From assembly GCA_032718475.1 (NCBI GenBank), contig JAUCBJ010001244.1:13758-77757 (forward strand): a stretch of DNA of 64,000 nt. The letters run 5' to 3'. The DNA is from Nemertoderma westbladi. Lineage: Eukaryota > Animalia > Xenacoelomorpha. The position numbers were made by a program, and so were the translations under genes. Below the pieces are notes generated by a model that saw only the letters and a program-made list of their open reading frames with translations, ran no database searches and was not told the origin of the DNA. This document shows positions 6,485-64,000 of this stretch, piece after piece. Numbering within the stretch: the stretch's first letter is position 1; each line of letters opens with the position of its first letter.

Positions 6485-7036
6485 TTTGACGGGATCCACG
6501 GAGGATCCCGGTTTATCCGGTTTTTAATCTACGCGTCCCCGCCGTGCGTGTGAAATGGTGAAAGAGTTATTAATCGCTGTATATAGTCCTTTGGGTATAA
6601 TAGTATGAGATATGTAAGATAGGTTGATATAAGTTACTATAAAATATAATATTGGCACTAGACGAAAGACGTTAATTAAAGTTTCGGTACTACCCTAGCT
6701 AAACTGACTTACAATAAGTGAATGAAATGATTACTGTACTGATAATATATTGCACGGTTGGCCGTATTGCGTTACCTAACCGATGCCTTCCCCCCTATTG
6801 GCTAATAACCCTGTTGTCGCCCTTTTATCCCCCCTGAAGTGCTCCCCTTCGCCCCTGCTATTCTCTCTCTCTCAGGGGTGTAACCCCTGACCCCTATTGT
6901 GCGCGTGCTCTGTGGAGTTTCTCCTCCTGACTTTGTTGGGGTGACACAAGGTTGACATTGGTAATCAACCTCGTGTTCCTAATATTGCTTAACGGCTCAC
7001 TTTATGGAGTGGTTAGCGGAATTAAATAAGCTAACA
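6485..7036 (-). mobile_element. 5' LTR of the gag-bearing element
   Basis: Homologous along its length to 35316-35841; - strand begins TGTTAGC and ends ...CCCGTCAAA (CACA in the other copy); no clear PBS seen. Confidence 0.7.
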
Positions 7037-7039
7037 TGT

Positions 7040-7607
7040 TTATTATAATTTTCTTAGGCGATTTGACAATGGTTTACATGATAACGAAGCTGGAGGTTTA
7101 AATAATTTAAAATTTGTGACAGGCCCACGTTGTTATACAGTATAACTCAACATAGGATTCAATGGGATTAGCCATGCTACATCTAATAAGAGCCCAAACA
7201 GCCACAGATTATTGAGGGATTGACTCAGGACCAAACTGGCCCATTTTATTTTCGTGTGAGGGTAATTTATGTTTTGGGCCCCGTTCTCATCTTTATATTT
7301 CATTCTATCATTCTACTGTATGACAAAAATAATACAAATGTACTGTATATTGTATTGTACAGTGCCTATTGTATTGTATATTTCATCTACTGTAGTACAA
7401 TCTATTCATCTCGCATCCCTATCTGATTGATTTGTGTCAAATTAAATTGCCTTTGGCAACATTATTTGATACAAATCGATCGATTACACAATTAATTAAT
7501 TGTTTAATCGACCAATTAATTAATTGTTTAATTAATTAATGACCTACTTAACACCCAAGGTGCGAAGTGGGTCTAACTGTCGCCGAAAAGGGGTAACTCT
7601 TACTACT
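7040..7607 (-). mobile_element. Truncated terminus of a Polinton-type (AGTAGT) element, same family as the 62161 element
   Basis: Ends ...gtctaactgtcgccga...tactact(7607); reverse complement matches 62161-62430 (ggcgacagttagacccactt..accttgggtgttaagtag..). Confidence 0.75.
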
Positions 7608-15907: not shown

Positions 15908-17342
15908 GTATATAATTTAATATAATTACCATTTTACCGATGTCCAATTTTAACATATGTTCAATTTTACCGTATGTAAATAGTTTTTATTATATTACAA
16001 TATAATATAATATTCTGTAATTTATGAAGGACCTACGTTTTTTATAATAGTTTATCAATAGTTAATAATAGTTTATATCAAATAGTTTATAATAGTTAAT
16101 ATATATATTATTATAATAGTATAACAATTTATCATATTTCATTTTATGAAATATGATTTGTAACATCTCTATTTTCGATTTACACCTGTTTTTTGTTGTT
16201 TGCAATTAGATGGAATTCATATAAAATAATTTAGAAATTTCAAATTGTAAATTGATTGTTTGAATCCTTTTTTTTGCGCAGTAGGAGTTTTTTGGAACAT
16301 ACTTATATACAGTACTAATTTATTAATATTCATTAATATATTAAAGTTTAAGTGTTTCTGAGAATATTTGCATTAATCGAATAGTTCATATGATACGTTA
16401 AATTCCAATAGGAATATTTTTTTACTTGCTTTAAATTGGCGGATGTAAATGAAAAGCAGTTCGATTTTTCTTTATATTCTGTTATAATAATGTCATTTAA
16501 CTTCAATCCGTCATCAGCATTTGCCACAAAATTCCCAGTGAAATTCCATTAAAATTACAGCCTTCTATAAACAAAAATCACATAAAAATAAATCATAACA
16601 TTTCTTTTTTTAAATAACATTAAAGTTAAGTTTGCCTTACTCAAGGTTTCTATTAAATAATAAGTTAGCATTTTGGTACAATGGACAGGGAATATCTTAT
16701 ATGCCCATCTAATGCTACTCATAGGGTTCATTCAGATAGATATATAAGACATATAAGAACTTCCTGAACTAGAATTATAAGAACTAAAGAACTTCCCGAA
16801 CGAAAAAATAGTACAGTGTCCTTTTATAAAAGCGCATTGCTTCCCAGGAGAGGAAAGGGAACATTATATAAGATATTGTGAATACAGGAATAGGGACTTT
16901 CTTTTTGAGACAAGAAAGCGAAAGAAAAAGAAGTATAAATAGAAGAGCTACAATGGTCAGCGGCATTGGGAGAAGAAGTGTGGGATTAAACAATGTTTAG
17001 TTTGATTTAGGGCTGATTGATTGATGTCTAGTGTGCAAGTTTTGGTATTGTATTTATATTGTAGTGCGAGCAACAGAACCAAAATAACTGTTAACTGTAG
17101 GGGAGATATATAATAATGCCCTGTTAGTATGTAAAGTTGTGCATGCATGTATGAACTAGAATAATTCGAACTGACATTTAATATATCATCACATAAATCC
17201 CTTATGACATAGACACTAACTTAGAAGCATGAAAACCACATATGTAGTGTATTAATATCCTGAAGACATTAGTTCAATGTTATTATCTTTTCCTACTCTG
17301 TTCTGAATAATATTTGTATTATGTCTACCATTAGAGGTTTTT

Positions 17343-18142: not shown

Positions 18143-19020
18143 AGTAGTAGGGTCTTGGCCGGCTCTGCGACAGTTGGACCCCACTGACACCCATTGGGTG
18201 TCATATGACACCCAATTATCACCCTATGGGTGTCATTGGGTGTCATTGGCGCCAGACTGTCTGGGTGACACCTCTCAATTAGGCTAATTAGACCCTAATT
18301 GACAGGTGTCATCAATTAATTAGTACAATTAAACCCTAACAGGTGTCATATGACTCCTAATTAGGGTTTAATTGATTATCCTAATTAATCAGACTGATTA
18401 GCGCCCTGACACACAATGGGTCGTCAGTGTTGTCCAACTGTCGCAGAGCCGGCTCAAGAGGGTGTCATAAGTGACACCGCAGCTCTTTTATTCATTAATA
18501 CTTATTTATATTTAATTTTAATTATTTGCATTTTATTTTATTCGTATTTAATTCTAAATTAATTATTCATTTGTACTTTATGGGTATACAGCTCCCTTAC
18601 TGGTAACTAATTACTCCAGACAGCTTTATCGTTGACCTTCGACCCCCCAATTAGCTTTAACCAAGCAACAGCATATTAATGATAGTTGTATCCAAGCGCC
18701 CCTGCCCCCCACCCCGTGACAGCTCTGATTACTAATTACTCTTACATATATCCAACCGCCTGCAGTTCCATAGTCTGCCGCTAGAGGGCGTATTATCTGA
18801 AAATTAACATCTTCTCTAACTTTGTTATTTTCAATTTAACTATTTATTTGTACCTAATTTTAATTAATTATTTGTATTCTATTTGACTTTATTTATTCAT
18901 TTGTACTTTATTTTAAATTAATTAATTGTATTACTTTTATTTTATATATTGATTTCTATTTTTAGATTAATTTGGTTTTATATTACCAATGAGATCACTA
19001 TGACATAATGTCTATTTTTA
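18143..19020 (+). repeat. Left TIR (~880 bp)
   Basis: Reverse complement of 31436-32339 apart from a few short indels. Confidence 0.95.
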
Positions 19021-19504
19021 ACTTTATAATGGCTATGGTATACGGCTCCCTACTGGCAACTATCAACTACGTTCATCGGCGGGGGGCCCCTCCTCTGCCA
19101 TCGCTTTTCATTAGTAGATACAACAGGCAGTGAATCTATACGTATACCCCCCCAGGCAATTATAAATGAGTGGTCCCATCTGTTAGCAGCCCCTTTGTCT
19201 TCATTATTCAATGGCGCCAGGCGGCCTTGACTACAGCAAATCCCTATGTCGCCCAAGGCTAATGCTCAAGCGGCCCTCCATTGTTCTCGGCATAGCCGGC
19301 GTCGCTTTGCCCCTTTCCTATATCCAGGCAGCCCCTATCATAACAATGAAGCGCCACTAATCACGCATTCCTCTCTACTAATCCCTTTCCTTTGCACCAG
19401 ACCTGCTTCTGTTATACAGCCAACTCAACATAATTAGTCAAGATGCCTACGGGGTTTCTAATATAGAATCAACAGGAGAAGTTGCCTTGGTAACCGCTTT
19501 TGCG

Positions 19505-19605
19505 CGAACAGCCAATCAGCGGGCTTCATTTCTGCTGCTGCGCTCTGATTGGCCCATTTAAGAGACAAGGGCCTCCCTTACTAACCGAATTGCTATTTAA
19601 TACGT
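19505..19605 (+). promoter_or_regulatory. Putative Pol II promoter of the pPolB transcription unit
   Basis: CCAAT (~19512), inverted ATTGG (~19548) and TATTTAA (~19594) just inside the left TIR. Confidence 0.45.
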
Positions 19606-19712
19606 CCCCACTAATATATTAGGTCATTATTTCAATTGCAATTTACAATTAACATCATTTACCATTATTTTGTTTTCGAATTTAATATTATTTATTTAAG
19701 AATATTTATTTG

Positions 19713-20530
19713 TCATTTCGCCGCGTTATCACTCATCGTCGACAACAAACTTTCCGCGTATCCGCCGCGTAATATTTCAATATTTCTAATTTCCGATACC
19801 ATTCCGTTCTATCGGTTGATAAACTCTCTCCTCGTCCACGTCAACCAACTTCCTCATCGCCACCGAACTTCCAAACTTCTTCTTTCCGTGAATATCTACT
19901 AACACCGTAAGTAAAATCTGCCTTCCATCTAGCTATACTTTCGACGCCGCTAGCAAACAATTTACATTTAATGTCTACCGATACAACAGTATTGCAGTAG
20001 GCTCATTATTAATTACTGTCAGACTGCGGTGGTACCGATAGCCTAAACCGTGATCGAAGCATTCGATCAATAGGCTTACATCCGCCTATCTGCTTACAGT
20101 ATTTTTTATCTTTTTACAAATAATCATCTTATTTTTCTAGTATCATTTCGCCGCGCTATCGCTCATCGTCGACAACAAACTTTCCACATATCCGCCGCGT
20201 AATATTCCATTATTTCTAATTTCCGTTACCATTCCGTTCTATCGATTAATAAATTCTCTCGTCGTCCACGTCAACCAACTTCCTCACGAACATCCAAACT
20301 TCTTCTTTCCGTGAATATTTACTAACACCGTAAGTAAAATCTGCCTTCCCTTCCACCATCTGACGGTACTATCGATGCCGCTAGCAAACAATTTACATTT
20401 AATGTCTACCGGTACAACAGTATTGCAGTAGGCTCATTATTAATTACTGTCAGACTGCGGTGATACCGATAGCCTAAACCGTGATCGAAGCATTCGATCA
20501 ATAGGCCTACATCTGTCTATCTGCCTGTCT
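19713..20530 (+). repeat. ~430-bp direct duplication, probably duplicated 5'UTR exon/intron units
   Basis: tcatttcgccgcg...caccGTAAGT...cattcgatcaatagg occurs at 19713 and 20143; pyrimidine-TAG acceptors at 20140 and 21045. Confidence 0.75.
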
Positions 20531-21052
20531 ACCTGACTATCGGTACCGCATCATTCGAGTTAGCCTAATGCCACTGTAGTAACGATATAGACCCTATTGA
20601 ACAACAATGAATACTGCAGTTTTCATTATATATCCTACTGACTAACTGAGATCTCACACAGCGATTAGCTAAGCCTATCGTTGATTTCTATTGGTTAACG
20701 CTACCGGTACGTCTGACTTGTAGCAGACTATATCACTAGCACTACTGCACTGACTGACTGCTGTTTATAGACCCTCTTTCCACGAATAATAACTGCCATC
20801 GCTATTGTGTCTTGGTTATCGCCACTATCTGACCGCTGGTACACTAACACTACTGCACTAGGCACTACCGACGGCGACGGTCTGCTTTATGTTTCACTGT
20901 CTGATTGCTACAATACAGCAATAGGCCTAACTATACAAACACAGTATTGTTGCCTAGTAACCAATTAATACCTACTGTTTTACTTTATTTTTAGCAAGTA
21001 TACAGTATTTTTTATTTTTTACAAATAATCAACCTATTTTTCTAGATTCAAG

Positions 21053-24000
21053 ATGCCAAGATCAACAAATAAAGTCAGCTGCCCCATCTGCGACAAAGAG
21101 ACACGGAGTGATCATTTATCTCGCCACATTAAAACTCATTTCGTGCAATATAGGTGCGACTGCTGTCCGACTTGGTCTTCGGAAAAGAAGACGCTGGTTG
21201 GCCATCTTGTTTCGTGTCCTCAGGGGGGAACAGGATTTAGTTACGTAAACGAGCCAGCCGATTGCCGCTGCGGGGATTCGCTCAGCCTGTCATCCTTTTC
21301 TGAGCATGAATGCTACACTCGACTTTTTTCGCGGAAACGCAAAACTCCGACTACCTCCCACTCATCCCCCATCAACTCTACTCCAGAACAAGTCGGCGGC
21401 GGCGGCTCCAATAACGAACCTTCAACTTCGCGAGATTCTATTTCCCCAAACAATCCATTTCAACCACCCTCCAACGGAAGCGCACATGGACGACTGTTTA
21501 CCTATAACAACGACCTCGCAGAAACAAGACTCGACGCAGAATTAACATTAAACGAAAATTTTCCACACATTCAAGAACATGTTAGTAGCCATTTACGTAG
21601 TGCCATGGGAACTTTTTTAAGAGTCTGGCTTACAATCAACATCGTAATGGAGCGTGAAACCAGCGAGGGTTTTCAAATTGAATCCTTCTGTTTTAAATCT
21701 AGCGGTAACAATAATCAAATTCTGAATAATAGCGACTTTAATAACTGGTTTTCCGGCGCCGTCAATCGTATCGATCAACTGTTAAGTGTGTTTCTCTGCC
21801 TCGGCTCAGGTTGGCGCATAATAGCCATCGAGCGAATAACTATTGAGATTGCGCGTTCCCAACGCAACCCCTATTTAAAGGGTCAAGGCTTCAATAATTC
21901 TAAATTATTATTAAATAAAAAATGTACCGTAAGCGTAGACTGCCCGCTGGGGGAATGCTTTAAATACGCAGTATTGGCCGCCGCAAATTATAAGAAAATT
22001 GATAGAAAACAAAATAATATTAGTAGAATTTCAACGTTTACTCCTTTCCTAAACATGTTTGATTTTTCGAATTTAAGTTTTCCGGTGGACAGAGTAACTG
22101 GTATTCCCCAGTTTCTGAAAGCCAACCCTAAATACTGCATAAACCTTCTTTATTGGAGTAATACGGAAGAACTCTCCATTCTAAGTCAACCAGATAGCGC
22201 GCACTGTTCCGGTAAAACTGTACTAAACTTATTATTTATCGAAGCCACAAGCAAAAACCCCGCCCACTACGTAGCCATTACTAACATAGATAGATTAATA
22301 AATACAAAAGCTACTTCTACCGGCAACAAGACGCACTGCGAACGCTGTCTCAGAGCCTTTTACACTGTCAAATCATTGGAAGAACATCGAGAGCGTTGCT
22401 ATACGGGTAAACGCCAACTCGAGTATATGCCCGAAAATCTCTTGGTTAAATTTGATAGGTACGATAAGACTCTATCCCCGCCTTTCTGTATATACGCCGA
22501 CATTGAAACTATTCTAGAACCTACAAACAATATTAAACTCCCACAGAAACATATAGCTAGCGCGGCAGCCTTTTATACAGTACCAAATCAGAAATTAATT
22601 AACCCTCCTAAAACAGATGTTCAAATTTTCCGCGACGATGGCAGTAACCACGTAATGCGCGACTTTCTAACCGCTATGGAAAGTCATTGTAGGGAGTTAT
22701 ACGATTGGTCCATTTCTAGTACAAACACACACGCCCCCATGCAACTCACTACTAGCCAGCAAACTGACTTTAATAACGCTACACAATGCTACGTCTGCAA
22801 CTGTAATTTAACCCCCGATTCGCATAATTTAAACCTCAATGACAATCTCAGCACCAAAGTCCGCGATCATGATCATTATAGCGGGGAGTATCGAGGGGCT
22901 GCTTGCGTCAGCTGCAACAGGAAACTTTCCCTAAAACGGAATAATTTTTATATTATATTTCATAACTTGAGGAAATTCGATATGCATTTACTACTAAAAG
23001 AAGGAATGACCGATAGTTCTAGAACACACTGGAAAATGTCCGTAATACCAAAAAACACCGAAACTTATATTCACCTTAAAGTTAGCTTCCCAATCGATCC
23101 GAGTACACCAACAGCCAACGCTAAAGAAAGTATCTCCATTAATTTTCTAGATTCCTATCAGTTTATGACTGCCAGCCTAGATAATCTTAGTAGCTATCTC
23201 ACTAAAAATAACAGTAACCTAGCAACAGCCATACCCCATACACTAGCTCAAATGACCCAACTCTATCCCAACATTAGCGATAACACAATAAAAAACAAGG
23301 GCGTATTCCCATATTCCTACATTCAAAATATTTCAAACCTATACGAAACTACACTCCCCCCATTAGAAAGCTTCTATAATGATCTCAAATTGGAACAATG
23401 TAGCGCAGAAAACTATCAGCGCGCGCTTACTACTTGGGATGAATTAAACTGTCTAACAATCTTCGACTATATGATTGGCTATTTGGTTCTAGATGTTACC
23501 CTATTGGCTGATACTTTCGAGCAGTTCCGATCCCTCTGTCTTACTAATTATGGACTCGAGCCCGTAATGTACTTCACTGCCCCTGGATTAACTTACGACG
23601 CAGCGCTGAAATTCACGCAATCAGAAATTCAATTACTATCAGACGCTTCCATCTACTCGGACTTTGAAACAAATATTAGGGGTGGTCTAGTATTCTTGAA
23701 TACACATTCCGTAGACGCAAATATCCCCGATAAACCCGACTATGACTCCAGTCTCCCCGAGAAATATCTAATTCCCATCGATGCGAATAACCTTTACGGC
23801 TGCGCCCTGAGCCAGAAACTTCCCCACGCTAATATTAAACTCGTAACTACCCCCATAGACCTAGCTACAGTAGACGCGAGTGGGGATACTGGTTATTATT
23901 GCATAGTTGATCTACATTACCCGAAAGAAATTCATGATTTGACCGCCGATCTGCCTCTAGGAGCGGAGAAGATGTCAGTCCCTAAATCCTTTCTTAGCGA

Positions 24001-25108
24001 ATACATGGAAGATCTTTGGGAGCATTACAATCTCACCGATACGGCTAGCTGTAGACCATACAACGATACCTGTACTAAGCTACTACTACATCAGTTTAAT
24101 AAGGTTGAATACGGTATCCATATTAAGCTACTTCAACTCTATTTGAAGCTCGGTCTTAAACTTACACAAGTACATAGGGTCTACTCTTTCTCACAAAAAT
24201 ATATTTTCAAGGACTACATTAGTTTTAATACAAATAAAAGACAGTCGGCAAATAACCCATTCGAGGTCCTATTTTATAAGTTGATGAACAATGCCTTGTA
24301 TGGGAAATGCCTCCAAAAGGTTAGAGACCGCGTTTCTTTCAGGTTATGCAATAGCGACGAACAATGCGATTTGCTCTTAGCCAAGCCCAATCACGAATCG
24401 TTTGTTGTATTTACCCCCAACTTGAGTGGTCATACTTTCACTAAAGAGGCTGTTTGCCTAAATCAGGGCGTGTTCATCGGTTGCACTATACTAGATCTAT
24501 CTAAGCTACAGATGTACGACCTATTTTACAACAAACTGAAGCCTCTAGAACAAAAACTGGATTGCCAGATTCGCTGTCTAGCCGGTGACACGGATTCTCT
24601 AATGCTAAGCGTAACTAATACACCACAGCTAACCTTTCTACGGGCAATGTTTGAGGGTGGTTTCCTAGATACTTCCAACTACAGTACAACACATCCACTC
24701 TATACCATTAAACACAAAGCGGCTCTCGGCTTCGTAAAAGATGAGAGCTGCGGTTTGCAGTATAAACAGTGGGTTTTCCTTAAACCAAAGGTCTACAGTT
24801 TTCACTCCTATGATGCCCCAATCAAGAAAACCGCCAAAGGTGTATCTAGATCGGTTGTCGCTAAGCAACTAACACACGAGGATTATGCAGACTGTTTTGT
24901 AAACGAGGCAATGCTCTTCCGCTATAACTCTACCTTCACTTCTAGAAAGCATCAAATTTTTACTGGTCATGTCTATAAGAAGGCACTAACGCTCTGGGAT
25001 ACGAAATCATATTGGAGTAGTAAATATAGCAGCAAACCATATGGACACTATAGCACTAAGCTTGTTAGACCGGCGAAACGAGTAGTAATCCCCCCTACTA
25101 GAATTTAA
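21053..25108 (+). CDS. polB: Protein-primed family-B DNA polymerase (Polinton type) with N-terminal zinc finger, putative terminal-protein/vOTU region and EndoVII-like insertion
   Basis: Intact 1351 aa. ExoI YADIET, ExoII FHNLRKFD, ExoIII YLVLDVTLLAD; Pol A IDANNLYG, B KLMNNALYGK, C AGDTDS; KTAKGV; ECFKYAVLAA...HYVAI; DHDHYSGEYRGAACVSCN; CPICDK..HLSRHIKTH. Confidence 0.97.
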   Translation: MPRSTNKVSCPICDKETRSDHLSRHIKTHFVQYRCDCCPTWSSEKKTLVGHLVSCPQGGTGFSYVNEPADCRCGDSLSLSSFSEHECYTRLFSRKRKTPTTSHSSPINSTPEQVGGGGSNNEPSTSRDSISPNNPFQPPSNGSAHGRLFTYNNDLAETRLDAELTLNENFPHIQEHVSSHLRSAMGTFLRVWLTINIVMERETSEGFQIESFCFKSSGNNNQILNNSDFNNWFSGAVNRIDQLLSVFLCLGSGWRIIAIERITIEIARSQRNPYLKGQGFNNSKLLLNKKCTVSVDCPLGECFKYAVLAAANYKKIDRKQNNISRISTFTPFLNMFDFSNLSFPVDRVTGIPQFLKANPKYCINLLYWSNTEELSILSQPDSAHCSGKTVLNLLFIEATSKNPAHYVAITNIDRLINTKATSTGNKTHCERCLRAFYTVKSLEEHRERCYTGKRQLEYMPENLLVKFDRYDKTLSPPFCIYADIETILEPTNNIKLPQKHIASAAAFYTVPNQKLINPPKTDVQIFRDDGSNHVMRDFLTAMESHCRELYDWSISSTNTHAPMQLTTSQQTDFNNATQCYVCNCNLTPDSHNLNLNDNLSTKVRDHDHYSGEYRGAACVSCNRKLSLKRNNFYIIFHNLRKFDMHLLLKEGMTDSSRTHWKMSVIPKNTETYIHLKVSFPIDPSTPTANAKESISINFLDSYQFMTASLDNLSSYLTKNNSNLATAIPHTLAQMTQLYPNISDNTIKNKGVFPYSYIQNISNLYETTLPPLESFYNDLKLEQCSAENYQRALTTWDELNCLTIFDYMIGYLVLDVTLLADTFEQFRSLCLTNYGLEPVMYFTAPGLTYDAALKFTQSEIQLLSDASIYSDFETNIRGGLVFLNTHSVDANIPDKPDYDSSLPEKYLIPIDANNLYGCALSQKLPHANIKLVTTPIDLATVDASGDTGYYCIVDLHYPKEIHDLTADLPLGAEKMSVPKSFLSEYMEDLWEHYNLTDTASCRPYNDTCTKLLLHQFNKVEYGIHIKLLQLYLKLGLKLTQVHRVYSFSQKYIFKDYISFNTNKRQSANNPFEVLFYKLMNNALYGKCLQKVRDRVSFRLCNSDEQCDLLLAKPNHESFVVFTPNLSGHTFTKEAVCLNQGVFIGCTILDLSKLQMYDLFYNKLKPLEQKLDCQIRCLAGDTDSLMLSVTNTPQLTFLRAMFEGGFLDTSNYSTTHPLYTIKHKAALGFVKDESCGLQYKQWVFLKPKVYSFHSYDAPIKKTAKGVSRSVVAKQLTHEDYADCFVNEAMLFRYNSTFTSRKHQIFTGHVYKKALTLWDTKSYWSSKYSSKPYGHYSTKLVRPAKRVVIPPTRI

Positions 25109-25122
25109 TTTTATTTTTCTAG

Positions 25123-25638
25123 AATAAGAAATTGAACAACAAAATAGAAATAACCAATAAACAGTTTACCGGAAAAAACATTGCCAAATTTGAACTAGAG
25201 AAAATTTCACAGCAAATTACAGGTCAAAGTTGCTTAAAACCAAACATGTTTATCTACAAAGGTGACGATTCAACTATAATGCTATTTCCCAGCGGCGCAG
25301 TAACAATTGTAGGCCTTTGCAATAATTTAGCTAGTGAATTGCTTTATTTAAAACAGACTATCGGGATGCAATTACAAAATTTGAAACTTAATACCGAAAC
25401 ACGAACTATTATTTTTCCTAGTGTTAATTTTAAATTATTAATGAAAAAATGTGGACATCACACAATTAATAATAAAGCAATATTTATTAGCTATACCCCC
25501 GAATTATTTTGTGCGATTAGAATATATATAGGATGTGCATATTTCAGTGTATTTCATAGTAATAAAATCGTTTCCATGTGTCCAGCCGGTGAATTCCCTG
25601 AATCATTATCTATTTTACAAACTTTATTATTAAATTAG
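25123..25638 (+). CDS. Divergent TATA-binding-protein (TBP)-fold protein
   Basis: Two TBP-like repeats: IEITN..F.LEKI..STIMLFPSGAVTIVG and LKLNTET...SYTPELFCAIRI..FSVFHSNKIV (cf. YEPELFPGL..IFVSGKVV). No ATG at the 5' end; frame opens directly after a tttttctAG acceptor (25122). Confidence 0.75.
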   Translation, partial: NKKLNNKIEITNKQFTGKNIAKFELEKISQQITGQSCLKPNMFIYKGDDSTIMLFPSGAVTIVGLCNNLASELLYLKQTIGMQLQNLKLNTETRTIIFPSVNFKLLMKKCGHHTINNKAIFISYTPELFCAIRIYIGCAYFSVFHSNKIVSMCPAGEFPESLSILQTLLLN

Positions 25639-25689
25639 TTTATTTACTATGGTATACATGAAAGTTTACTATATTATTTATTTTGTGTT

Positions 25690-26680
25690 GGTTTTTATTT
25701 TTCCGTGAGTAGGGTTTGAATCCGTGACCATCCGTGTTACCTACTTTTTATAATTGCATTAGTAGGACTCAAACCCTGGTTTTTCCTATTTTGTGTTGGA
25801 TTTATAATTGACGCGAGTAGGGATTGAACCCGTGACCTTCTGTTTTTCCTAATTTATGTTTAGTTTAGTTACTCTAGTTATTCTATGTTTACTTTTTATA
25901 TTTTCATGATTAGTATTCAAACCCTGGTTTAACTTATTTCGAGTTGGATTTATAATGGTCGCGAGTAGGGATTGAACCTATGACCTCCTGTTTATTTTCC
26001 ATAAAACGGGATACGAGTAGGGATTGAGCCCGTGACCTTCTGTTTTTCCTATTTTATGTTTAGTTTAGGTACTCTAGTTATTCTATGTTTAACTTATTTT
26101 GTGTTGGTTTTATATTGGTCGCGAGTAGGGATTGAACCCGTGACCATCTGTTTATCCTATTTTGTGTTTACTTTTTATATTTTTCTATAAAACGGGATAC
26201 GAGAAGGGGTCGAACATGTGACCACCTGTTTATCCTATTTTATGTTTAGTTTAGGTACTCTAGTTATTCTATGTTTAACTTATTTTGTGTTGGTTTTATA
26301 TTGGTCGCGAGTAGGGATTGAACCCGTAACAATCTGTTTATCCTATTTTGTGTTTAGTTTAGTTACTCTAGTTATTCTATGTTTACTTTTTATATTTTCA
26401 TGATTAGGATTCGAACCCTGGTTTAACTTATTTCGTGTTGGATTTATAATGGTCGCGAGTAGGGATTGAACCTATGACCTCCTGTTTATTTTCCATAAAA
26501 CGGGATACGAGTAGGGATTGAGCCCGTGACCTTCTGTTTTTCCTATTTTGTGTTTAGTTTAGGTACTCTAGTTATTCTATGTTTACTTTTTATATTTTTT
26601 CATAAAACGGACACGAGTAGGGATTGAACCTACAGTATGACCATCTGTTTATCCTATTTTATGTTTAGTTTAGTTACTCT
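25690..26680 (-). repeat. Tandem array of ~13 tRNA T-arm/B-box-like units
   Basis: Recurrent gagtagggattgaacccgtgacc; - strand GGTCACGGGTTCAATCCCTACTCGCGACCA; ~50-110-bp spacing; higher-order ~494-bp duplication. Confidence 0.85.
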
Positions 26681-27439
26681 ATGTTAAAGTGAATTTTCAC
26701 ATTATATTTGTGTTAAATTATAAATTTATGTTGCAATTATTATTTATATTATAAAAAACAGAAATATTCGAGTTATATTGCATTATATATTTTATATTGA
26801 AGTGGAATACTTTAGATGTTGGGGGACTCTGGTTTGCGAGGGATATTTGAATGGTGAGTATAACTATCCTTGAGAGCTAGTGCAACGCTATCTCACTATG
26901 GATGGGCTTTACCACTGTACTCGCATCTGCTCTCTCATTGGCTGCTCGATGCCTCCGATTAAGGGTCTAAGACCTTCAAGCTGATTATTTGCTTAGTTTT
27001 CTAATTAGAAGGTCGTGAGTTTGGACCCTAGAAGAGCATTATTCTTTTTCCTAGCTCTTGGTTAACTCTAGCATATACTCTAGCTTCGACTCTCCCAGCT
27101 ATAGTGATAGTATGCAACCTTGGGAGTTAATGTGAGTAAAGACCAAGAGATTAGACTTCAGGCTCCCTCTATTGGTTCATTCTTCTTAACTTTATAAAAT
27201 AACTCAACCCGTATTTAAAGTTTTAAAAATTATGACTTAGTCGACTAATTTTCCAAAGTATATTATAAAAACATATAATTTCTTGAATAGATAGACCTAA
27301 TAGTAATAAATAATGTGGGGGTAAATACATTTATAATTCTAATATAATTATTAAGGATAAATAGTCCCAATACTAATATAATTATGTAATAGTAAGCAAA
27401 ATTTTTATGCGCAACCATCAGAGATTATTTGGATATAAA

Positions 27440-27575
27440 AGATCACACAGCAGGAGGCTAACTTGCTGGGATCGTGTGTCGCTATGTCTTATATCGGGTG
27501 GATGAGAGAGCCCCCTCCGGCGCAACATTGTGAACATGGGCTATATTGCTAGAGAGAGAACTACATATAAGACCA
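27440..27575 (+). repeat. Dispersed repeat fragment inside the Polinton
   Basis: Reverse-complement similarity to 14140-14296 (agatcacacagcaggaggctaacttgctggga...gagagagaactacat..aagacca). Confidence 0.7.
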
Positions 27576-29394
27576 TGGCCGGCCCTCATGCAGATTTAGC
27601 GGCGCCAAGGCTAACGCGGAAAAAATAAAAAGTAAACACAAAATAGGATATACAGATTGTCATAGATTCGATTCCCTACCCCCGATCAGAGTCATTATGA
27701 TCCTCCCCCGATAATTATAGAATATTTTATAGGCCGGTAGTATTGGGGTTATTATGTGACTCATGAAAATAAATCTTAAATACAATACAAATGCTCCATC
27801 TGGGTAAAAGTGGATGCAATGTATTTACAAATCGAGTGTGGATCAGGATAGTTTTCGTTAAGGTTTCACCTTGGTGAAGTGGAAGCATTGTATTCACATT
27901 TCGAGTACCATTTTTATTGAAACTATGGGGCATTTTATATTAGCCGATTTTTCAAAATTTGTAAAGTTTTGAGGGTTTTTATGAAAAATATAGGGATTTA
28001 GGGATTATCATTCAAATTGACTACGAAGAAGGCATAGGGATCATTAATGGTGTGCTGAGACTCAGAAATTTTCAGGAAATTTAAATTTTTGCCCTCGCTT
28101 CGTGGAAAATATAAAAAGTAAACACAAAATAGGATATACAGATTGTCATAGATTCGATTCCCCACCTCGATCGGGGTCATTATGACCCTCCCCCCCGATA
28201 TTTATACAACATTTTATAGCCCGGTAGTATTATGATTAAAGCTACTAACCTAAAACATAACAAAGTGCAATTATCCTATCTGTTCCAACTCGGTGTCACT
28301 AGTTTAGATAATATACTATAATAATAGTGATAGCAGATGCTTTTAATTTCGCGATGAAATAATATCAGCAAACGAGATATAGTGAATACATCATAGATAG
28401 AATTTTAAATTTTGCAGTTGCAAGGAGTGATAACCCTTAGGTGAAAGCTAAATTTGCTCTACTTTAATCAAATGGGGCATTAAAGCTACGAGTATATTTT
28501 CCTCTACATCCTCCCTCGAACTTACACAAATCTGGGCAAAAGGCAGTTGAAAGGCTATCATTTCCCATCATATGCGGTCCTCCCTTTAATGTTTCATTGT
28601 TCTATTCATAGTCGCCTTTAAGAATTTCTCGGGAAAATAAGGATGAGGGGCTATCACTTTCAACCCCATGCGGCCCTCCCTTTCATGATTTCATTGAACT
28701 ATCCATAGTACGAACAATCAAACCAAAGCCTTTGAATATCCTCGCGGCTTATCAGCGGCGCCATGGCTAACGGCTTAATATTAACAGTGAAGCATCTAAA
28801 AGACAGAGTGTCTATGATAGGACAGAACAGCGTACTTACAGCCTAGAGGTGGTCGCCCTGAAAACTTTGCTCGCCATCAATACATACAAAGCATCGCTTG
28901 ATGGATAGAGTAATAGGGTGGATATTTTCATTTTGGTGAATATAATTTATAGCATTAATCACGAAAATCGCTAAATAATATATTTTAATTAAAATCAGCT
29001 CTGATAAACAACTTGCATATCGAGTTTGTAAAGAATTCATAGGGATTGGCTGTTTATTTAGGGGTTAACATGCAAATTGATTACGAAGAAGCAGTAGGGG
29101 TCATTAATGGTATGCTGAGACTCACTTACTTCATGGCTCGCTCTCATAGAATAGATTAACTAGTAGAGAAAAATGAAAAATAACCGGTTAAACATCTTAT
29201 ATTTTTTAAACAATATGGGGAAACAAGAATAAATAATTTACCGACAACATCAATATTAAATAATATAACAACAGATAAATAATTTACCAACAACATTGAA
29301 AATAAATAATATAAGAACATCAACAATAACAAAAGATATAATCAGAACAGTTTTTAATAAATAGAGACTGTTTATATTAATAGGGTTGCTGGTC

Positions 29395-31086
29395 TCAGAG
29401 AATATCTGGTTTAACCCTTTTAGGGTCCGATACTATTAATGGTTGCGATAATTTTCTCTTTAATAGTTTATTGAGATAACCTTTTCTTGGGGGGTGAGAT
29501 AGATTAAGGTGTGTTTGCTGCGGGAGAAATATGCCTTCTCTGAGAGAACGTTTTAGTAACTCGAAAAGGCGCGCGATGGTAAAGTCGTTGGATAGGGTGA
29601 TAGTGTTGGTATTTTTCGTATTGGTGAATATAATTTCTGCTGGTTTGTTCTCGATATGAATGTAAGGACTGAGATAGTAGTGAGAGTTGGGTGGGTTGGT
29701 TATATTTATCGCGAGAAAATCGCTGCCCCTAATATTGAGACCGTTGGTGAACTGAAAAGTGGAATTCTCTTCGTCTTTCATTAAAATGGGCCAGATACCA
29801 ACATATTTTTCGGATTTGAACTTATAGATAAAGGCTGCGATACTGCTATTTATGAGATAGCGCTGGTGATTGGGGATTGTAATCTTCTTCGGTTTGAAAG
29901 CAAATTGTATAGCCATAGCCTTGAATCTGATTAGAGCCTCGCGCGCTTGAATTGTGTTAGCTATAGTAAAGGATTCGTTAAATTTTCTCTCGGTTATCTG
30001 TAAATCAATTTCTGAATCGCTGATACAACTTTGTATCGATATTCGCTCGGAAATGTTGTCTTTGTATACGTTAAGTTCATCGTAGCAGACACATTCACTA
30101 TCCTCGACGGTTGAATCGAACCATTTCAATTCGCCGACCTCGGTTGGTGTAAGAAGAATCATGCCCCTAGAAGAAACAATAGCCTTTCCATCGTCAACCT
30201 CGTAGCCATTGGTGATCGCTAAATTGCGCTCGTTCCGAATATTTGTAACAAACCCAAAAGTGCAATAGTCAAAAGCAACCCAATTTCCCGGTTTTAGGAC
30301 AAGGTGAGTAGTAGGATTAATAAAAGGGCGACAGATGTTTACATATTGTTGAAATAAATTGGCGCAGGTGACGGAAAATGTGATCCATGAACTGTTTACA
30401 GTGTCTTCCAGCTTTATTAACTCGAGTGGATTCACTGGGTTAATACTTCCATAGGTGCCAACTCTATAATTGAATCCAAAGTAATAGGAGACTTTATTGG
30501 CGAAAAAGCATGTGAGCTCATTCAATTTCTCGCCGAAAGTGAGAACATCCTTGTCGAAAAGTTTAAAGAAACGAGTCTCCTCTTCCTCGGTCGGAGTCGA
30601 CGAGTTCCAGATGAGAAGAAGAATCGAGTTTGCGATACTATGAAAATCAAATAAGCGATCATCGGAGAAGAAGGAGGTTACGAGGGTGGTTAAACCCAGT
30701 AGACGATTTGCCACATCTTGGTTGATGTTTTCTCGAATAAAATCGACTATACTAGTTGGAATCGTAAACGTCTCGGGCGAAGTAGTTAGATTGAACGTGA
30801 TTTTGTTGTCCATTTTTAAAAGTTTGAAACCGTGGTTGGAGGAATGAAGTTTATTATCGTCGAGGGTTTGATATTGTCCATCGTGAAGTTCGTAGCAGGC
30901 GCGGAAAATAAAGTGCGCGTAGTTTGCCGGAATCGGGATGGGTTGGTTTAAGGTTGTATTTATCGTTAACGGGAAGAGTTTGTTCGCCGGATCGAAATAT
31001 AGACCAAACGAGTTGTCTTGTAGCATAAACTGATTTTCGTTGCAAACCAGATCGTTGCTTGAATAGCTGATTTCTGAATGTGCCAT
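29395..31086 (-). CDS. Polinton-borne 563-aa protein, putatively with PC4-like ssDNA-binding domains and a C-terminal bipartite NLS
   Basis: Intact ORF. FIYKFKSEKYVGIW...TNGLNI and FVTNIR...DDGKAIVSSRGMILLTPTEVGEL resemble the PC4 consensus (V..FKG..YVDIR...GISLT.EQW..L); ends KRK-x10-KRVK. ORF is solid, domain call tentative. Confidence 0.6.
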   Translation of the reverse strand: MAHSEISYSSNDLVCNENQFMLQDNSFGLYFDPANKLFPLTINTTLNQPIPIPANYAHFIFRACYELHDGQYQTLDDNKLHSSNHGFKLLKMDNKITFNLTTSPETFTIPTSIVDFIRENINQDVANRLLGLTTLVTSFFSDDRLFDFHSIANSILLLIWNSSTPTEEEETRFFKLFDKDVLTFGEKLNELTCFFANKVSYYFGFNYRVGTYGSINPVNPLELIKLEDTVNSSWITFSVTCANLFQQYVNICRPFINPTTHLVLKPGNWVAFDYCTFGFVTNIRNERNLAITNGYEVDDGKAIVSSRGMILLTPTEVGELKWFDSTVEDSECVCYDELNVYKDNISERISIQSCISDSEIDLQITERKFNESFTIANTIQAREALIRFKAMAIQFAFKPKKITIPNHQRYLINSSIAAFIYKFKSEKYVGIWPILMKDEENSTFQFTNGLNIRGSDFLAINITNPPNSHYYLSPYIHIENKPAEIIFTNTKNTNTITLSNDFTIARLFELLKRSLREGIFLPQQTHLNLSHPPRKGYLNKLLKRKLSQPLIVSDPKRVKPDIL

Positions 31087-31199
31087 CGTGATTGTGTATC
31101 GGTAACTCGTTTAGGAAATAAAAATAAATAAATACTTTTACGAAAATAATTAAAACTTTTCAGGAAAACAAAGAGACAATGATTGGGAATGTGGTGAAC

Positions 31200-31310
31200 G
31201 GGGGCTATTATAGAGGGGGCTAGAATGGGTTAGCCAATCAGGGAACAGGAGGGAGAAAAGACTGTATAATTAAACCAATCAGAGAGCAGCTTTGATGACG
31301 TCACATCAGG
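31200..31310 (-). promoter_or_regulatory. Putative promoter of the 563-aa ORF
   Basis: TATA-like TATAATA (- strand ~31205-31212), two CCAAT boxes (~31233, ~31275), CRE site TGACGTCA 31296-31303. Confidence 0.5.
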
Positions 31311-31435
31311 CGAGATAATGATTGCCCAATGTTATTCAATGGTAGACAGAATGGCGCCATTGAATAACGAAGACAAAGGGGCCGCGAGAGGAAAGATTAT
31401 AAAGTTAACGATAAGGGATCTATAAACCATAGAGC

Positions 31436-32339
31436 TAAAAATAGACATTATGTCATAGTGATCTCATTGGTAATATAAAACCAAATTAATCTAAAAATAG
31501 AAATCAATATATAAAATAAAAGTAATACAATTAATTAATTTAAAATAAAGTACAAATGAATAAATAAAGTCAAATAGAATACAAATAATTAATTAAAATT
31601 AGGTACAAATAAATAGTTAAATTGAAAATAACAAAGTTAGAGAAGATGTTAATTTTCAGATAATACGCCCTCTAGCGGCAGACTATGGAACTGCAGGCGG
31701 TTGGATATATGTAAGAGTAATTAGTAATCAGAGCTGTCACGGGGTGGGGGCAGGGGCGCTTGGATACAACTATCATTAATATGCTGTTGCTTGGTTAAAG
31801 CTAATTGGGGGGTCAAAGGTCAAAGGTCAACGATAAAGCTGTCTGGATATAGATAAGAGTAATTAGTTACCAGTAAGGGAGCTGTATACCCATAAAGTAC
31901 AAATGAATAATTAATTTAGAATTAAATACGAATAAAATAAAATGCAAGTAATTAATTAAAATTAAATATAAATAAATAGATATTAATGAATAAAAGAGCT
32001 GCGGTGTCACTTATGACACCCTCTTGAGCCGGCTCTGCGACAGTTGGACAACACTGATTGACCCATTGTGTGTCAGGGCGCTAATCAGTCTGATTAATTA
32101 GGATAATCAATTAAACCCTAATTAGGAGTCATATGACACCTGTTAGGGTTTAATTGTACTAATTAATTGATGACACCTGTCAATTAGGGTCTAATTAGCC
32201 TAATTGAGAGGTGTCACCCAGACAGTCTGGCGCCAATGACACCCAATGACACCCATAGGGTGATAATTGGGTGTCATATGACACCCAATGGGTGTCAGTG
32301 GGGTCCAACTGTCGCAGAGCCGGCCAAGACCCTACTACT
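31436..32339 (-). repeat. Right TIR (~900 bp)
   Basis: Inverted copy of 18143-19020, ends CTACTACT. Confidence 0.95.
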
Positions 32340-49832: not shown

Positions 49833-50444
49833 GACGCGGTTTCTCATTTTTTCCACTTCTGGACAAAACCATAATATTACACCTATATTTTTAAAAACTT
49901 TCAGTTTCGGATATAGTACACGTATTAATACTGATAAAATATGTTTTTCCCCTCTTGTATGTCTTTGTTTGTCCCCATTATTTCCCTGAAAGGCGTAGTC
50001 AGATAGCCTTCCCTTATACAGGGGTCTGACATTCTGACAGTGGCATACAGTAAGGCAGTGCAGTATGGACATCGCCTTTACCTCTATGTAGCTCTACAAT
50101 ACACTCAGACTCTGGATACATGGATTACCGCGCCTTTAAAGACAGACACAGCATCACACAGTAATTAATGGATTTATTTCATAAAACAATATGAATGGCA
50201 CTGGACATAATACAGATCAATTTTCTTTGCATCATATGATATTATTATATAATCGACAGTTATAAAGAACTGATAACATTGTACTAATTTACTGCTAAAT
50301 ATGTTCCCCAGATAAAAAATATACGGATTATTAGTAGGCATAACTATATAATTATCATTTTACTCTACAGTATTTGCCGGATAAAACATAACATACAGTA
50401 ACTACATAACTATACAGGCATAACTAAACAAAACTAAGCTATTT

Positions 50445-59495: not shown

Positions 59496-59609
<114 letters not shown>

Positions 59610-59933
59610 CTAAAATATCGTAGAGGCCTTCAGTTAATGATTCGCTGGTTCCCAATATCGAAGCGGTGTTTCCGATCAGGATAGCTATCAGGATACGCTG
59701 TAGTAAGAAGCGATGAGAATGGGGCTCAAATGAAATGGAAGGTACAGATAAATATTTTAAGAACTATATATTCATCGCATTTACCTACCTGTTTTTCTTT
59801 TGACCTTATATCACTGTTTCTATACCCCATCCGATACCCGCATCACCCGGATTTCATTGTCGAACCTCACTAGAAGCCGAGGTGTGCAAATGGCGCTGAC
59901 GGGATATGTTAACATAGTTCTCAGTATAAACAG

Positions 59934-60356: not shown

Positions 60357-61828
60357 ACATGTAATCTAATAATCTCTCTATGCGGTTATTGTTGTAGTTG
60401 AAACTTTAATTAAATCTACTTATTGCCTTATACTTAATATATCCGCTACTTACATATACCCATCTCTGTAAATCGACAGATCCCATATATAGAGGGGGGA
60501 GGTGGAGGATACCTGTACGTCATGACCATCAATGACCCCGGGATACGGGAGGTATCTTAGGTTTCTTAATCGTGGTCTGCAGGATTTTGTTACTAGGTAG
60601 TTTTTAATACATAATACGTACCTAGTTTGATATATAATTATACCTGATCAGCAGTATAGAAGATGATCAATATACCTCTTGTGTTTGGCAATATTACCTT
60701 ACGTGTTTTATATATATATCAACACACTCTTGTAACGCATGCTCTTAATTAGCTGCACGGGTCAGCTTTATTAATTTGTATTTAATTTTAAATTAATTAA
60801 TTTCAAGATTCCTATAATCAATAAATATACATTATATAGGTAGTGTGAACACGGCCTAAGGAACGCGGCGTAACGCCGTGAAAAAACATTAAACTTCCAA
60901 ACGATGGGACTGGTGGTGCTGCAATATCGCCGGCGGTGACACTTTATTGAAACGCTTGTAGCTAAAGAATAAAATATAAAAATACAAATTCTGGCTCAGT
61001 CACTAAGGATGAGGGAGGTGAAACTACTGTAGCTCTGTTTCATTCATGCTATTCATTCAAATTTGTATTAAAGTTAGGGGGGGGGGGGGGGAGGGGCGTG
61101 TCATGTATTGAAATTACAAAACTAAATTACAACATTAAATTTAAAAGCATTCAATAATTATTCAATTCATTTTCTTAATCAAAGAGACCTTGGTGTACTG
61201 GTTGCATTGAATTCGCATCTCTTGGAGGTCGTGGGTTCAGTGTTAAGTCTGAGATTTGACAGTGCTGCAGTATGTATTCCAACGAAAAAATACGGCACGG
61301 GTCAGCAGGTACGGAACTGCAAACTACGCTGCGATATGTTGTACCGGTAGGTACATGTGCTGATGTGCGACATGCCGATTGTACAGGCTGACCGGGGTGC
61401 ATGATAGCAAGAAAATATCTGAAAATCAAAATGTTAAAAATTAAAATTTGAATATTAAATAAAAGAATTTAAAAATAATTATTAAGAATATATTTTATAC
61501 AATATAGAGCAGTAGAGTAAATAGTTTCTATATCGTTATAGTAGAAAAGGATATATTTTTAAATAAATAAATTGGAGATGAGCTGTTGCAACTGTAATTA
61601 AAGGTGTAATATTATGGTTTTGTTCAGAAGTGGAAAAAAATTAATTTACAAATTTATTTAATTAATATCACCTGGAAGCAATACTCGAGCTGAATATCTA
61701 CTTATTTGCACTCCCCTCCTGTTTCACTCTACAGTAGCATGCTTGAGGCTGTTAGAGATGGAATATAAGCAACTTAAGACTGCCCTGCCCGTTCAATAGG
61801 AGTGGATTAGGTGGGAGTGTGAGTGTCA

Positions 61829-61916
61829 GGGGCTAGTGGCTGAGCTGGTTAGCGCTACTGATGAGGCCTGTTAGGCCGAAACGTACGTATAGTATAGCGC
61901 TGGTTCAACCCCCGGT
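61829..61916 (+). ncRNA. Second copy of the tRNA-framed hammerhead ribozyme
   Basis: Identical to 49745-49832. Confidence 0.85.
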
Positions 61917-62160
61917 GACGCGGTTTCTCATTTTTTCCACTTCTGGACAAAACCATAATATTACACCTATATTTTTAAAAACTTTCAGTTTCGGATATAG
62001 TACACGTATTAATACTGATAAAATATGTTTTTCCCCTCTTGTATGTCTTTGTTTGTCCCCATTATTTCCCTGAAAGGCGTAGTCAGATAGCCTTCCCTTA
62101 TACAGGGGTCTGACATTCTGACAGTGGCATACAGTAAGGCAGTGCAGTATGGACATCGCC

Positions 62161-64000
62161 AGTAGTAATAGTATGCCACCCTCGGCGACAGTTAGACCCA
62201 CTTCACACCTTGGGTGTTAAGTAGATCATTAATTAATTAACCAATTAATTAATTGGTCGATTAAACAATTAATTAATTGTTTAATCAATCGATTCGTATC
62301 AAATAATGTTGCCAAAGGCAATTTAATTTGATACAAATCAATCAGATAGGGACGCGGGATGAATAAATTGTACTATAACAAACGAAATATACAATACAAT
62401 ATACAATACATTTGTATTATTTTTATTCAAACCTCCAACTTCATTATTATATATTAACATTTGATGTATTTTATTTTTAGATTTACCAAATTCACGCACT
62501 ATAATAGAATAATAACTAACTTATCCATCACCATCACAACAGAATAATAACAATAAAAGTTCGAAAGTACACCCTGCATCCTATCTATAGCCTTGTATGG
62601 GCATATACAGTAACATAGTCATCAACACAAGCGCCAAGGTAGATGGTGGTGGCTTCCTTTACCTGTTGTCTAAGGCTTCCTTTACCTGTTGTCTAAGGCT
62701 TCCTAACCTGTATAATTCAACAAAGTTTAAAGTTTTTGCTGTACGTCTTTTTCATAGCCTATGTTAAATCAAATTACATTCATGTAACTATTGTAACATT
62801 TATATTATAAAATGGATATGGTGAGGGATTGAACTTATTGTTACTTGATTTATTTACCTTATCAATTAATCCCACGCTTCTTCTCTCCACTCTTTTTCTA
62901 TACCCCACGCCTCTTTCGGCCATTCAACGCTAGGGTTTTCGATCTTTTTCTTTTCATCTTCTTTTCTTTTTTCGTAAATGGACTCTCCATTTCGATACTG
63001 GCAGTATCTTAAATGGTATTGTTTTTCCGCCTCTGGGAAATAATGACATTGGATGTTCGGACATTGAACTATTTTTTCACTTGGAAAATTCCTTCTACAT
63101 TTTCTTAAATGTTTCGTAAATCTTTCCACATGGATTCTATGCGTAGCATCATATGGGCATATTATATACTCATTATCCATTTTATTTATATTAAAGTAAT
63201 ACTCAATCTAAGGCTTATTTATCGACAAATAAATTTATTATAATATATTAACATTTGATGTATTTTATTTTTTAGATTTACCAAAATCACGCACTATAAT
63301 AGAATAATAACTAACTAACTTATCCATCACCATCACAACAGAATAATAACAATAAAAGTTCGAAAGTATACCCTGCATCCTATCTATAGCCTTGTATGGA
63401 CATATACAGTAATATAATCACTGTTATTCATAGTATCAAAAAGACAAACTTAACTTGAAAGAAAACTTAACTTGATAGAAAACTTAATGTTTTTTTTTAG
63501 AGATAATGATCTAACTTTACATGGTTTTATTTATATAGAAAGGTCCACCTTAACATTTCAAACAGAACCATAGTTTTTGGTATGGCATGCGTAAAGGATT
63601 AAGCATCCCATGGATTCCCTTGTTGAGTTATACTCTACAATGAAATATAAAGACGCAATCGAGACCCAAAACATAAATATACCCTTTCACAAAAAAAGTG
63701 GCCCCAGTTTAGCCCTGAGTCATCCCTCAATAATCTGCGGCTGTTGGGATCTTATTAGATGTGGTATGACTAACCCATTCATCATTGCGTGAATGGGGCC
63801 TGCGTGAATGGGACCTGCGATAGAGCTTAAATTATTCAAACCTCCTATGACAATTCGACTAAGAAAATTATAATAAACATCTGCTATGGCATTAGTTTGC
63901 ATTCTTTCGCATTGTATTGCGAAGCAGTCCACGCGCATATTAGCTCAGCAACAAAGGCAATACCCAAAACACCACATGTCAAATTAATTCCCAACCATCT
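62161..64000. mobile_element. Left part of a second Polinton-type (AGTAGT) element; extent beyond the TIR is inferred
   Basis: Begins agtagtaatag..ggcgacagttagaccc exactly at the duplication breakpoint; TIR homologous to 7290-7607. Confidence 0.75.
62866..63180 (-). CDS. GTSF1: GTSF1/Asterix-like protein (two CHHC U11-48K-type zinc fingers, Trp-rich acidic tail)
   Basis: CPYDATHRIHVERFTKHLRKC and CPNIQCHYFPEAEKQYHLRYC both fit C-x5-H-x9-H-x3-C; tail EWPKEAWGIEKEWREEAWD; intronless, ATG to TAA intact. Confidence 0.85.
   Translation of the reverse strand: MDNEYIICPYDATHRIHVERFTKHLRKCRRNFPSEKIVQCPNIQCHYFPEAEKQYHLRYCQYRNGESIYEKRKEDEKKKIENPSVEWPKEAWGIEKEWREEAWD

What the first reader, a model, noticed from the sequence alone, without database searches (positions are those of the whole stretch)
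62161..63420. Polinton-type element carrying an intact GTSF1/Asterix-like piRNA-pathway gene
Seen: about 700 bp inside an AGTAGT terminus lies an intronless 104-aa ORF with two perfectly spaced CHHC fingers and a tail with four Trp residues. Known: GTSF1/Asterix is a PIWI cofactor needed for transposon silencing; it binds RNA through CHHC fingers and PIWI through aromatic residues after the fingers. Inference: a mobile element has captured a compact version of its host's silencing cofactor, a candidate decoy or dominant-negative suppressor of piRNA silencing (or a self-limiting device).
Basis: partly seen in the sequence, partly recalled or inferred. Interest (0 to 1): 0.9.

Follow-up and report, generated by a model that had tools for sequence, protein, structure and literature searches.

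The report
Jumping element carries transposon-silencing gene
A likely recently inserted, Polinton-type jumping element carries an intact copy of GTSF1, a helper of the piRNA system that silences jumping elements; the gene is likely kept by selection and is predicted to bind PIWI proteins like an ordinary GTSF1, but whether it strengthens or blocks silencing is untested.

Summary
An intronless 104-aa ORF (62866-63180, minus strand) has two canonical CHHC fingers and four tail tryptophans, and its best matches are GTSF1. It lies 705 bp inside an AGTAGT end at 62161. That end interrupts one copy of a 99.94% identical duplicate whose other copy is empty, and it shares its terminal motif with a pPolB element that has a 6-bp TSD. 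A sister copy in the window and contigs from three studies join the two flanks without the gene, so it is cargo of a minority subfamily. Differences between copies are mostly synonymous (11 of 15 classified). A decoy is not shown. The RNA-binding residues are as in ordinary GTSF1s, and a broken paralogue at 16681-16989, with no element end beside it, shares the compact shape. The tryptophan hook is, however, doubled. Right end, polymerase or integrase of this family, expression and PIWI binding were not seen.

The parts
62155..62160 (+). Six bases before the terminus; predicted left copy of a 6-bp target-site duplication (right copy lies beyond the window)
   Evidence: Same six bases stand once at the empty site 50071-50076; the TSD itself was not seen
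62161..62424 (+). Left terminus (AGTAGT..., TIR-like) of a high-copy Polinton-type family
   Evidence: 90% over 241 nt to the sister end at 7607(-); terminal motif shared with the pPolB element 18143-32339; very high contig depth
62423..62453 (+). Piece of the family's own subterminal sequence at the left edge of the cassette
   Evidence: 84% over 31 nt to sister 7105-7075, E 0.008
62437..62621 (.). Direct repeat 1 (downstream of the ORF)
   Evidence: 93% to 63231-63420
62866..63180 (-). Intact intronless GTSF1-like ORF, 104 aa: fingers at 63159-63097 and 63063-63001, four-Trp tail at 62922-62872
63231..63420 (.). Direct repeat 2, 50 bp upstream of the ATG; candidate promoter region (inferred)
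63605..63640 (+). Piece of the family's subterminal sequence at the right edge of the cassette
   Evidence: 83% over 36 nt to sister 7168-7133, E 2e-4
63636..64000 (+). Subterminal sequence of the family, which in gene-less copies follows the terminus almost directly; runs off the window
   Evidence: 83% over 149 nt to sister 7307-7161; joints 62401->63703 and 62424->63639 in contigs
50071..50082 (+). Empty insertion site in the other copy of a 12,084-bp tandem duplicate
   Evidence: 41354-50076 equals 53438-62160 with 5 differences in 8,723 nt and ends exactly at the AGTAGT
7036..7607 (-). Sister copy of the same terminus family without the GTSF1 cassette
16681..16989 (+). Broken (frameshifted) intronless paralogue of the same compact GTSF1 subfamily; no terminus motif or direct repeat beside it
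   Evidence: profile hits E 3e-8 and 3e-4; 54-56% aa identity; flanks no better than shuffles
18143..32339 (+). 14.2-kb pPolB element with about 885-bp TIRs, AGTAGT//ACTACT ends and a 6-bp TSD; a different family that shares the terminal motif

Best explanation
A minority subfamily of a Polinton-type TIR element carries an intact GTSF1 gene, likely captured from a host-lineage family of compact, intronless paralogues and likely kept by purifying selection, and its protein is predicted to join PIWI-piRNA-target complexes as a working cofactor rather than as a crippled decoy. Steps: (1) shown: the gene sits between the terminus and subterminal DNA that are adjacent in other copies, and this copy fills a site that is empty in a near-identical duplicate; (2) inferred: it is copied in trans by Polinton-type polymerase and integrase, neither of which was seen for this family; (3) shown in part: changes between copies are mostly silent; (4) predicted: the fingers bind RNA and the doubled Trp hook binds a host PIWI protein; (5) inferred: the net effect is an extra, mobile dose of cofactor, perhaps tuned to one PIWI paralogue, which persists because it is useful or harmless to the host.
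For: Inside the element: sister copy 7607-7161 and joints 62401->63703 (runs X3, X5) and 62424->63639 (X2, X3, X5), which cover 3 studies. Recent insertion: empty site in a duplicate with 5 differences in 8,723 nt. Several copies: window-type contigs are 2.0-7.6 times as deep as a diverged variant (rough, since the tool warns that depth is no copy number). Selection: 11 of 15 listed differences to the about 10% diverged variant are synonymous against 17.5% expected, p 3e-6; worst case 11 of 22, p 5e-4. Against the broken paralogue pS is 0.87 and pN 0.22. Working surfaces: mouse R29/K36/K39 correspond to R20/K27/R30, and R26 to H17, a position that is Arg in only 30 of 140 homologues; these residues and the Trp residues are what potentiation needs (PMC9385479, passages). 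Model pLDDT is 84-94 per 10-residue block over residues 1-60, with rmsd 2.6 A to GTSF1 in the SIWI complex 9nhc. The compact C-terminus is shared with the paralogue.
Against: Selection while the gene was on the element is only weakly shown. The older signal could all have built up in host loci before a recent capture. A selfish element gains nothing obvious from a working silencing cofactor. The tail is atypical: four Trp in 0 of 140 homologues, a W-x4-W pair in 0 of 140, and an end within 5 residues of the last Trp in 3 of 108. It also lacks the C-terminal extension that many homologues have. The right end, TSD, polymerase and integrase of this family were not seen, and the host's main GTSF1 gene is unknown.
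Confidence: 0.42

Rival explanations
1. Element-encoded suppressor: the doubled Trp hook would let the short protein out-compete host GTSF1 for PIWI, while the missing C-terminal extension would leave the complex unable to cleave or recruit partners, relieving silencing in trans.
For: Four Trp in two W-x4-W pairs from an 11-codon internal repeat (17 of 24 nt alike), absent from all 140 homologues examined; the broken paralogue has only two tail Trp. Intact, selected, multi-copy cargo of an active element. Trp residues set affinity for PIWI (Kd 8 vs 500 nM; PMC9385479). TEs repeatedly capture piRNA genes as counter-defence (PMC13534243, section 8 read).
Against: The RNA-binding surface and both fingers are kept. 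The short C-terminus predates this element copy. Gene-bearing copies are a small share of the family: subterminal depth is 12-21 times that of the ORF (rough), whereas the Drosophila gene-capture families have higher copy numbers.
Confidence: 0.24
2. Passenger: the element recently picked up a stretch of a host GTSF1 paralogue locus; the intact frame and silent changes would reflect selection in the host before capture, and the element copies would decay like the paralogue at 16681.
For: Very young insertion; minority of copies; a decayed paralogue lies in the same window; contig joints 62577->62927 and 62889->63525 suggest versions with part of the ORF missing.
Against: Cassette edges are made of the element's own subterminal pieces; the 3 listed changes between cassette-context copies of two samples are all silent.
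Confidence: 0.2
3. RNA-level counter-defence as for TART-nxf2: element transcripts read from the left end are antisense to the ORF and would give piRNAs that target the host's about 90% identical GTSF1 copy.
For: The ORF points towards the left terminus. A variant about 10% diverged exists at about single-locus depth, apparently with another 5' flank (record 30; orientation inferred). About 90% identity sufficed for targeting in Drosophila.
Against: The known cases are 140-235 bp fragments; here a whole frame is kept with an excess of silent changes, which points to a protein.
Confidence: 0.09
4. The cassette is a separate small mobile unit (LTR/TRIM-like or a retrocopy) or an assembly artefact that happens to lie in the TIR element.
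For: 190-bp direct repeats on both sides of the ORF; a 10-bp word occurs on both sides of the ORF (62669, 62692, 63207); no contig spans the whole stretch.
Against: Read by eye, the repeats do not begin and end at TG...CA, and there is no primer site, purine tract, poly(A) or TSD. Contigs of two studies cover the ORF and its 3' flank at 98-100% identity.
Confidence: 0.05

Closest known systems
GTSF1/Asterix family (mouse GTSF1, PDB 6x46; GTSF1 in the SIWI-piRNA-target-GTSF1-Maelstrom complex, PDB 9nhb/9nhc; PMC9385479, passages and section 11)
   Same: Tandem CHHC fingers, basic RNA-binding residues in finger 1, Trp residues in an acidic stretch after the fingers, same fold.
   Different: 104 aa, ending right after the last Trp; four Trp in a duplicated motif; at most 51% identity to any of the 150 listed homologues; lies inside a mobile element in several copies.
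Polinton/Maverick elements with accessory or cargo genes (PMC8097293 passages; PMC8502044 passages; PMC6431247 section 10; nematode cargo, bioRxiv 10.1101/2022.07.12.499685 listing only and PMC11512509 passage)
   Same: (AGT)2 end; a related family in the window has ACTACT, TIRs, a 6-bp TSD and pPolB; host-like genes such as Bcl2 and IAP are known cargo.
   Different: No pPolB, integrase or capsid gene seen for this family; GTSF has 0 mentions in the main text of PMC8502044 (supplements not read); the cargo is a piRNA-pathway cofactor.
Drosophila telomeric retrotransposons that captured nxf2, piwi or aub (PMC13534243, section 8 read; PMC7785250, listing only)
   Same: A mobile element holds sequence of a host piRNA-pathway gene, about 90% identical to another copy in the genome.
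   Different: Those are 140-235 bp fragments that act as piRNA sources in retrotransposons; this is a whole selected reading frame in a DNA element.
VANC anti-silencing proteins of Arabidopsis VANDAL transposons (titles in the reference list of PMC13534243; mechanism recalled)
   Same: Precedent for a transposon-encoded protein that counters host silencing.
   Different: VANC is element-specific and DNA-directed and is not a captured pathway member; no anti-silencing activity is shown here.

Membership tests
GTSF1/Asterix | Two tandem CHHC zinc fingers at the N-terminus | tested here: met
   Canonical spacing twice; Pfam PF05253 above cut-off for finger 1; confident model over residues 1-60
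GTSF1/Asterix | Closer to GTSF1 than to U11-48K or TRM13 | tested here: met
   PDB E 5e-10 and 3e-8 against 0.002; Foldseek top two hits are GTSF1; Atlas 0.95-0.96
GTSF1/Asterix | Basic RNA-binding residues (mouse R26, R29, K36, K39) | tested here: met
   H17, R20, K27, R30: 3 of 4, as in 98 of 140 homologues
GTSF1/Asterix | Aromatic residues after the fingers | tested here: met
   W87, W92, W98, W103
GTSF1/Asterix | Binds PIWI and potentiates target cleavage | not testable with these tools
Polinton/Maverick | 5'-(AGT)2 end motif | tested here: met
   62161, with the second motif shared with the pPolB element; motif as in PMC8097293
Polinton/Maverick | Matching right TIR ending (ACT)2 and a 6-bp TSD | not testable with these tools
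   Lies beyond 64000; no genome held. Met only for the related element 18143-32339
Polinton/Maverick | Protein-primed DNA polymerase B | tested here: inconclusive
   None in the 1,840 bp visible; present in the related family (PF03175 E 2.5e-18)
Polinton/Maverick | Retroviral-type integrase, ATPase, protease and capsid genes | tested here: inconclusive
   410 ORFs of 22 related viral loci gave no tblastn hit in the window outside pPolB; most of this element is outside the window
TE-encoded silencing suppressor | Expression of the element's protein relieves silencing | not testable with these tools
   No functional data

The most novel reading that the evidence does not exclude
A Polinton-type element encodes its own version of the PIWI cofactor GTSF1, with a doubled PIWI-binding hook, that displaces the host cofactor and jams piRNA silencing: a transposon-encoded protein inhibitor of the animal piRNA pathway made from the pathway's own part.
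Probability: 0.24. Interest if true: 0.92.

Novelty: new variant of a known kind. Interest (0 to 1): 0.62.

Why it matters
Known captures of piRNA genes by transposons are short fragments that act through small RNAs (PMC13534243). An intact, selected PIWI cofactor carried by a DNA element would be a protein-level link between a mobile element and its own silencing machinery. If it inhibits, it is a protein counter-defence against piRNAs and a possible tool to block PIWI. If it activates, it shows a defence gene being amplified by the elements it polices. One slicing assay separates the two. No such case turned up in searches for GTSF1 with Polinton (1 paper, listing only) or with Maverick (4 papers, GTSF passages read in 2); subscription papers and supplements were not covered.

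Tried and rejected
No genome is held, so the right end, TSD and copy count could not be read from an assembly. No RNA holder was listed among 6 runs; this is no evidence on expression. No close protein relative: near-length search 0 candidates, longer proteins 0 of 4 candidates; the 525 representative hits are general GTSF1-type proteins, 150 listed. No related locus in viral contigs (0 of 20 stretches) or metagenome contigs (0 of 416). No match to the terminus patterns in either collection. No GTSF1 in 22 viral loci with a related pPolB (best E 0.047) and no viral structure match at E <= 0.001, so recurrent capture is not shown. The sole host GTSF1 reading is rejected: several sequence classes and a paralogue exist. 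The LTR/TRIM reading of the direct repeats was rejected by eye for lack of hallmarks. Truncation by capture was rejected because the paralogue ends alike. No complex with PIWI was predicted because no host PIWI sequence was available. The flanks of the diverged variant and 7 of its 22 differences remain unread. No tree was built, since the host GTSF1 is unknown. Two key papers were not held (PMC12416740, PMC3744727), so the role of the C-terminal extension in the PIWI complex was not checked.

Full report
Observation. The ORF is real: 62866-63180 on the minus strand, 104 aa, one frame, with fingers C8-H14-H24-C28 and C40-H46-H56-C60 and Trp at 87, 92, 98 and 103. Pfam zf-U11-48K hits finger 1 at E 6.7e-9. 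Solved-structure matches are mouse GTSF1 (E 5e-10) and the GTSF1 chain of a SIWI complex (E 3e-8), far ahead of U11-48K. The model is confident over residues 1-60 and less so in the tail; its top two fold matches are GTSF1, and the Atlas gives PF05253 clusters at 0.95-0.96. The 150 best of 525 representative hits are at most 51% identical; of 10 looked up, 5 clusters carry names, all GTSF1 or GTSF1-like proteins of animals. The host is therefore likely an animal not represented in the protein collections.

The terminus. AGTAGT begins at 62161. Six sites in the window carry AGTAGT followed by GACAGTT(A/G)GACCC, out of 44 AGTAGT words. Two of them bound a 14.2-kb element (18143-32339) with about 885-bp inverted repeats, an ACTACT end, a 6-bp target duplication and a protein-primed polymerase. 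These are Polinton/Maverick hallmarks (PMC8097293, passages). The 62161 end belongs to a different family, 90% identical to an end at 7607. No integrase or capsid gene was found in the window with 410 ORFs from 22 related viral loci. The element is therefore Polinton-type by its end and is not shown to be a full member.

Recent insertion. The stretch 53438-62160 repeats 41354-50076 with 5 differences in 8,723 nt and stops exactly at the AGTAGT; the other copy runs on without it. Whether the duplicate is a true tandem copy or two haplotypes, the insertion is young. One contig of run X2 ends exactly at 62160, as expected if both forms exist (inference).

The gene is inside. In the sister copy the terminus leads almost directly into sequence matching 63636-63779. 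Contigs join 62401 to 63703 (X3, X5) and 62424 to 63639 (X2, X3, X5), covering three studies. The 1.2-kb cassette between them holds two 190-bp direct repeats around the ORF, and its edges match short pieces of the family's subterminal DNA. Summed depth is 12-21 times higher on the subterminal part and 42-130 times higher on the terminus than on the ORF; the tool warns that this is no copy number, so I read it only as 'a minority of copies'. No contig spans the whole stretch.

Copies and selection. One search shows window-type contigs and a variant with 22 differences in 222 nt; the window type is 2.0-7.6 times as deep. Its table shows 40 of 74 difference rows. In run X5, 162 of 360 bases of the variant contig do not fit, and by the record orientation they lie just upstream of the start codon (inferred), so the variant may be a host locus. 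Between copies that share the cassette's 3' flank, 3 of 3 listed coding changes are silent, with 2 differences unlisted (p 0.004 to 0.13). Selection on the protein family is clear; selection while on the element is only suggested.

A profile of the family found a frameshifted, intronless relative at 16681-16989, 54-56% identical in two blocks, with pS 0.87 and pN 0.22 over 68 codons, a tail that aligns better than 100 of 100 shuffles and ends at the same Trp-Asp-stop, and flanks that align no better than shuffles. No terminus motif lies beside it. The compact form is thus an old lineage-specific subfamily with birth and death of copies, not a product of this capture.

Mechanism. Mouse GTSF1 needs R26, R29, K36 and K39 for RNA binding and W98, W107 and W112 for PIWI affinity (PMC9385479, passages). 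The ORF has H17, R20, K27 and R30; three basic residues of four is the commonest state, 98 of 140 homologues with both fingers among 150 examined. A simple decoy would be expected to lose this surface (inference). The tail is unusual: four Trp where none of 140 has more than three, two W-x4-W pairs from an 11-codon internal repeat, and a stop right after the last Trp, seen in 3 of 108. The paralogue has two tail Trp. I put a working cofactor carried as cargo at 0.42, a competing suppressor at 0.24, a passenger at 0.20, a piRNA source against the host gene at 0.09 and a separate unit or artefact at 0.05.

Comparison. Mavericks carry host-like genes such as Bcl2 and IAP (PMC8502044, passages; GTSF has 0 mentions in its main text, supplements not read). 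Drosophila telomeric elements captured nxf2, piwi and aub fragments of 140-235 bp that act through piRNAs (PMC13534243, section 8). A whole GTSF1 frame in a DNA element did not appear in my searches. Earlier notes of this scan gave no look-alike sequence.

Verdict. Observation confirmed; capture supported; suppressor role open. New variant of a known kind, interest 0.62.

Noticed in passing
window 18143-32339: Complete 14.2-kb AGTAGT//ACTACT element with a 6-bp TSD, an intact 1,350-aa pPolB, a TBP-like ORF (25123-25638, Pfam E 0.002) and an unknown 562-aa ORF (29395-31083, no Pfam or Atlas hit), but no integrase or capsid gene found.
   Followed up: partly
window 61800-61965 (and its duplicate 12,084 bp earlier): Very high-copy repeat with tRNA-type A and B boxes (read by eye) around a hammerhead ribozyme core; Rfam Hammerhead_3 E 0.16, below the gathering score.
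   Followed up: partly
window 46911 and 58995: Further AGTAGT ends related to the pPolB element's TIR (84% over 337 nt), followed by an unknown 140-aa ORF (59934-60356, no Pfam hit); no right end with the terminal motif found.
   Followed up: no
window 37741-44081 and 53438-55707: Repeated, broken Helitron-like stretch with PIF1 helicase and GIY-YIG nuclease pieces inside the tandem duplicate.
   Followed up: no
window 5261-7036: A 396-aa ORF without Pfam hit and a 550-bp repeat (72% to 35318-35841) begin where the sister element's similarity stops; possibly an inserted LTR-type element.
   Followed up: no
window 62437-62621 and 63231-63420: On the plus strand each direct repeat has a pyrimidine tract with AG near its start and a GT near its end, like a duplicated non-coding exon of a transcript antisense to the ORF (read by eye).
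   Followed up: no
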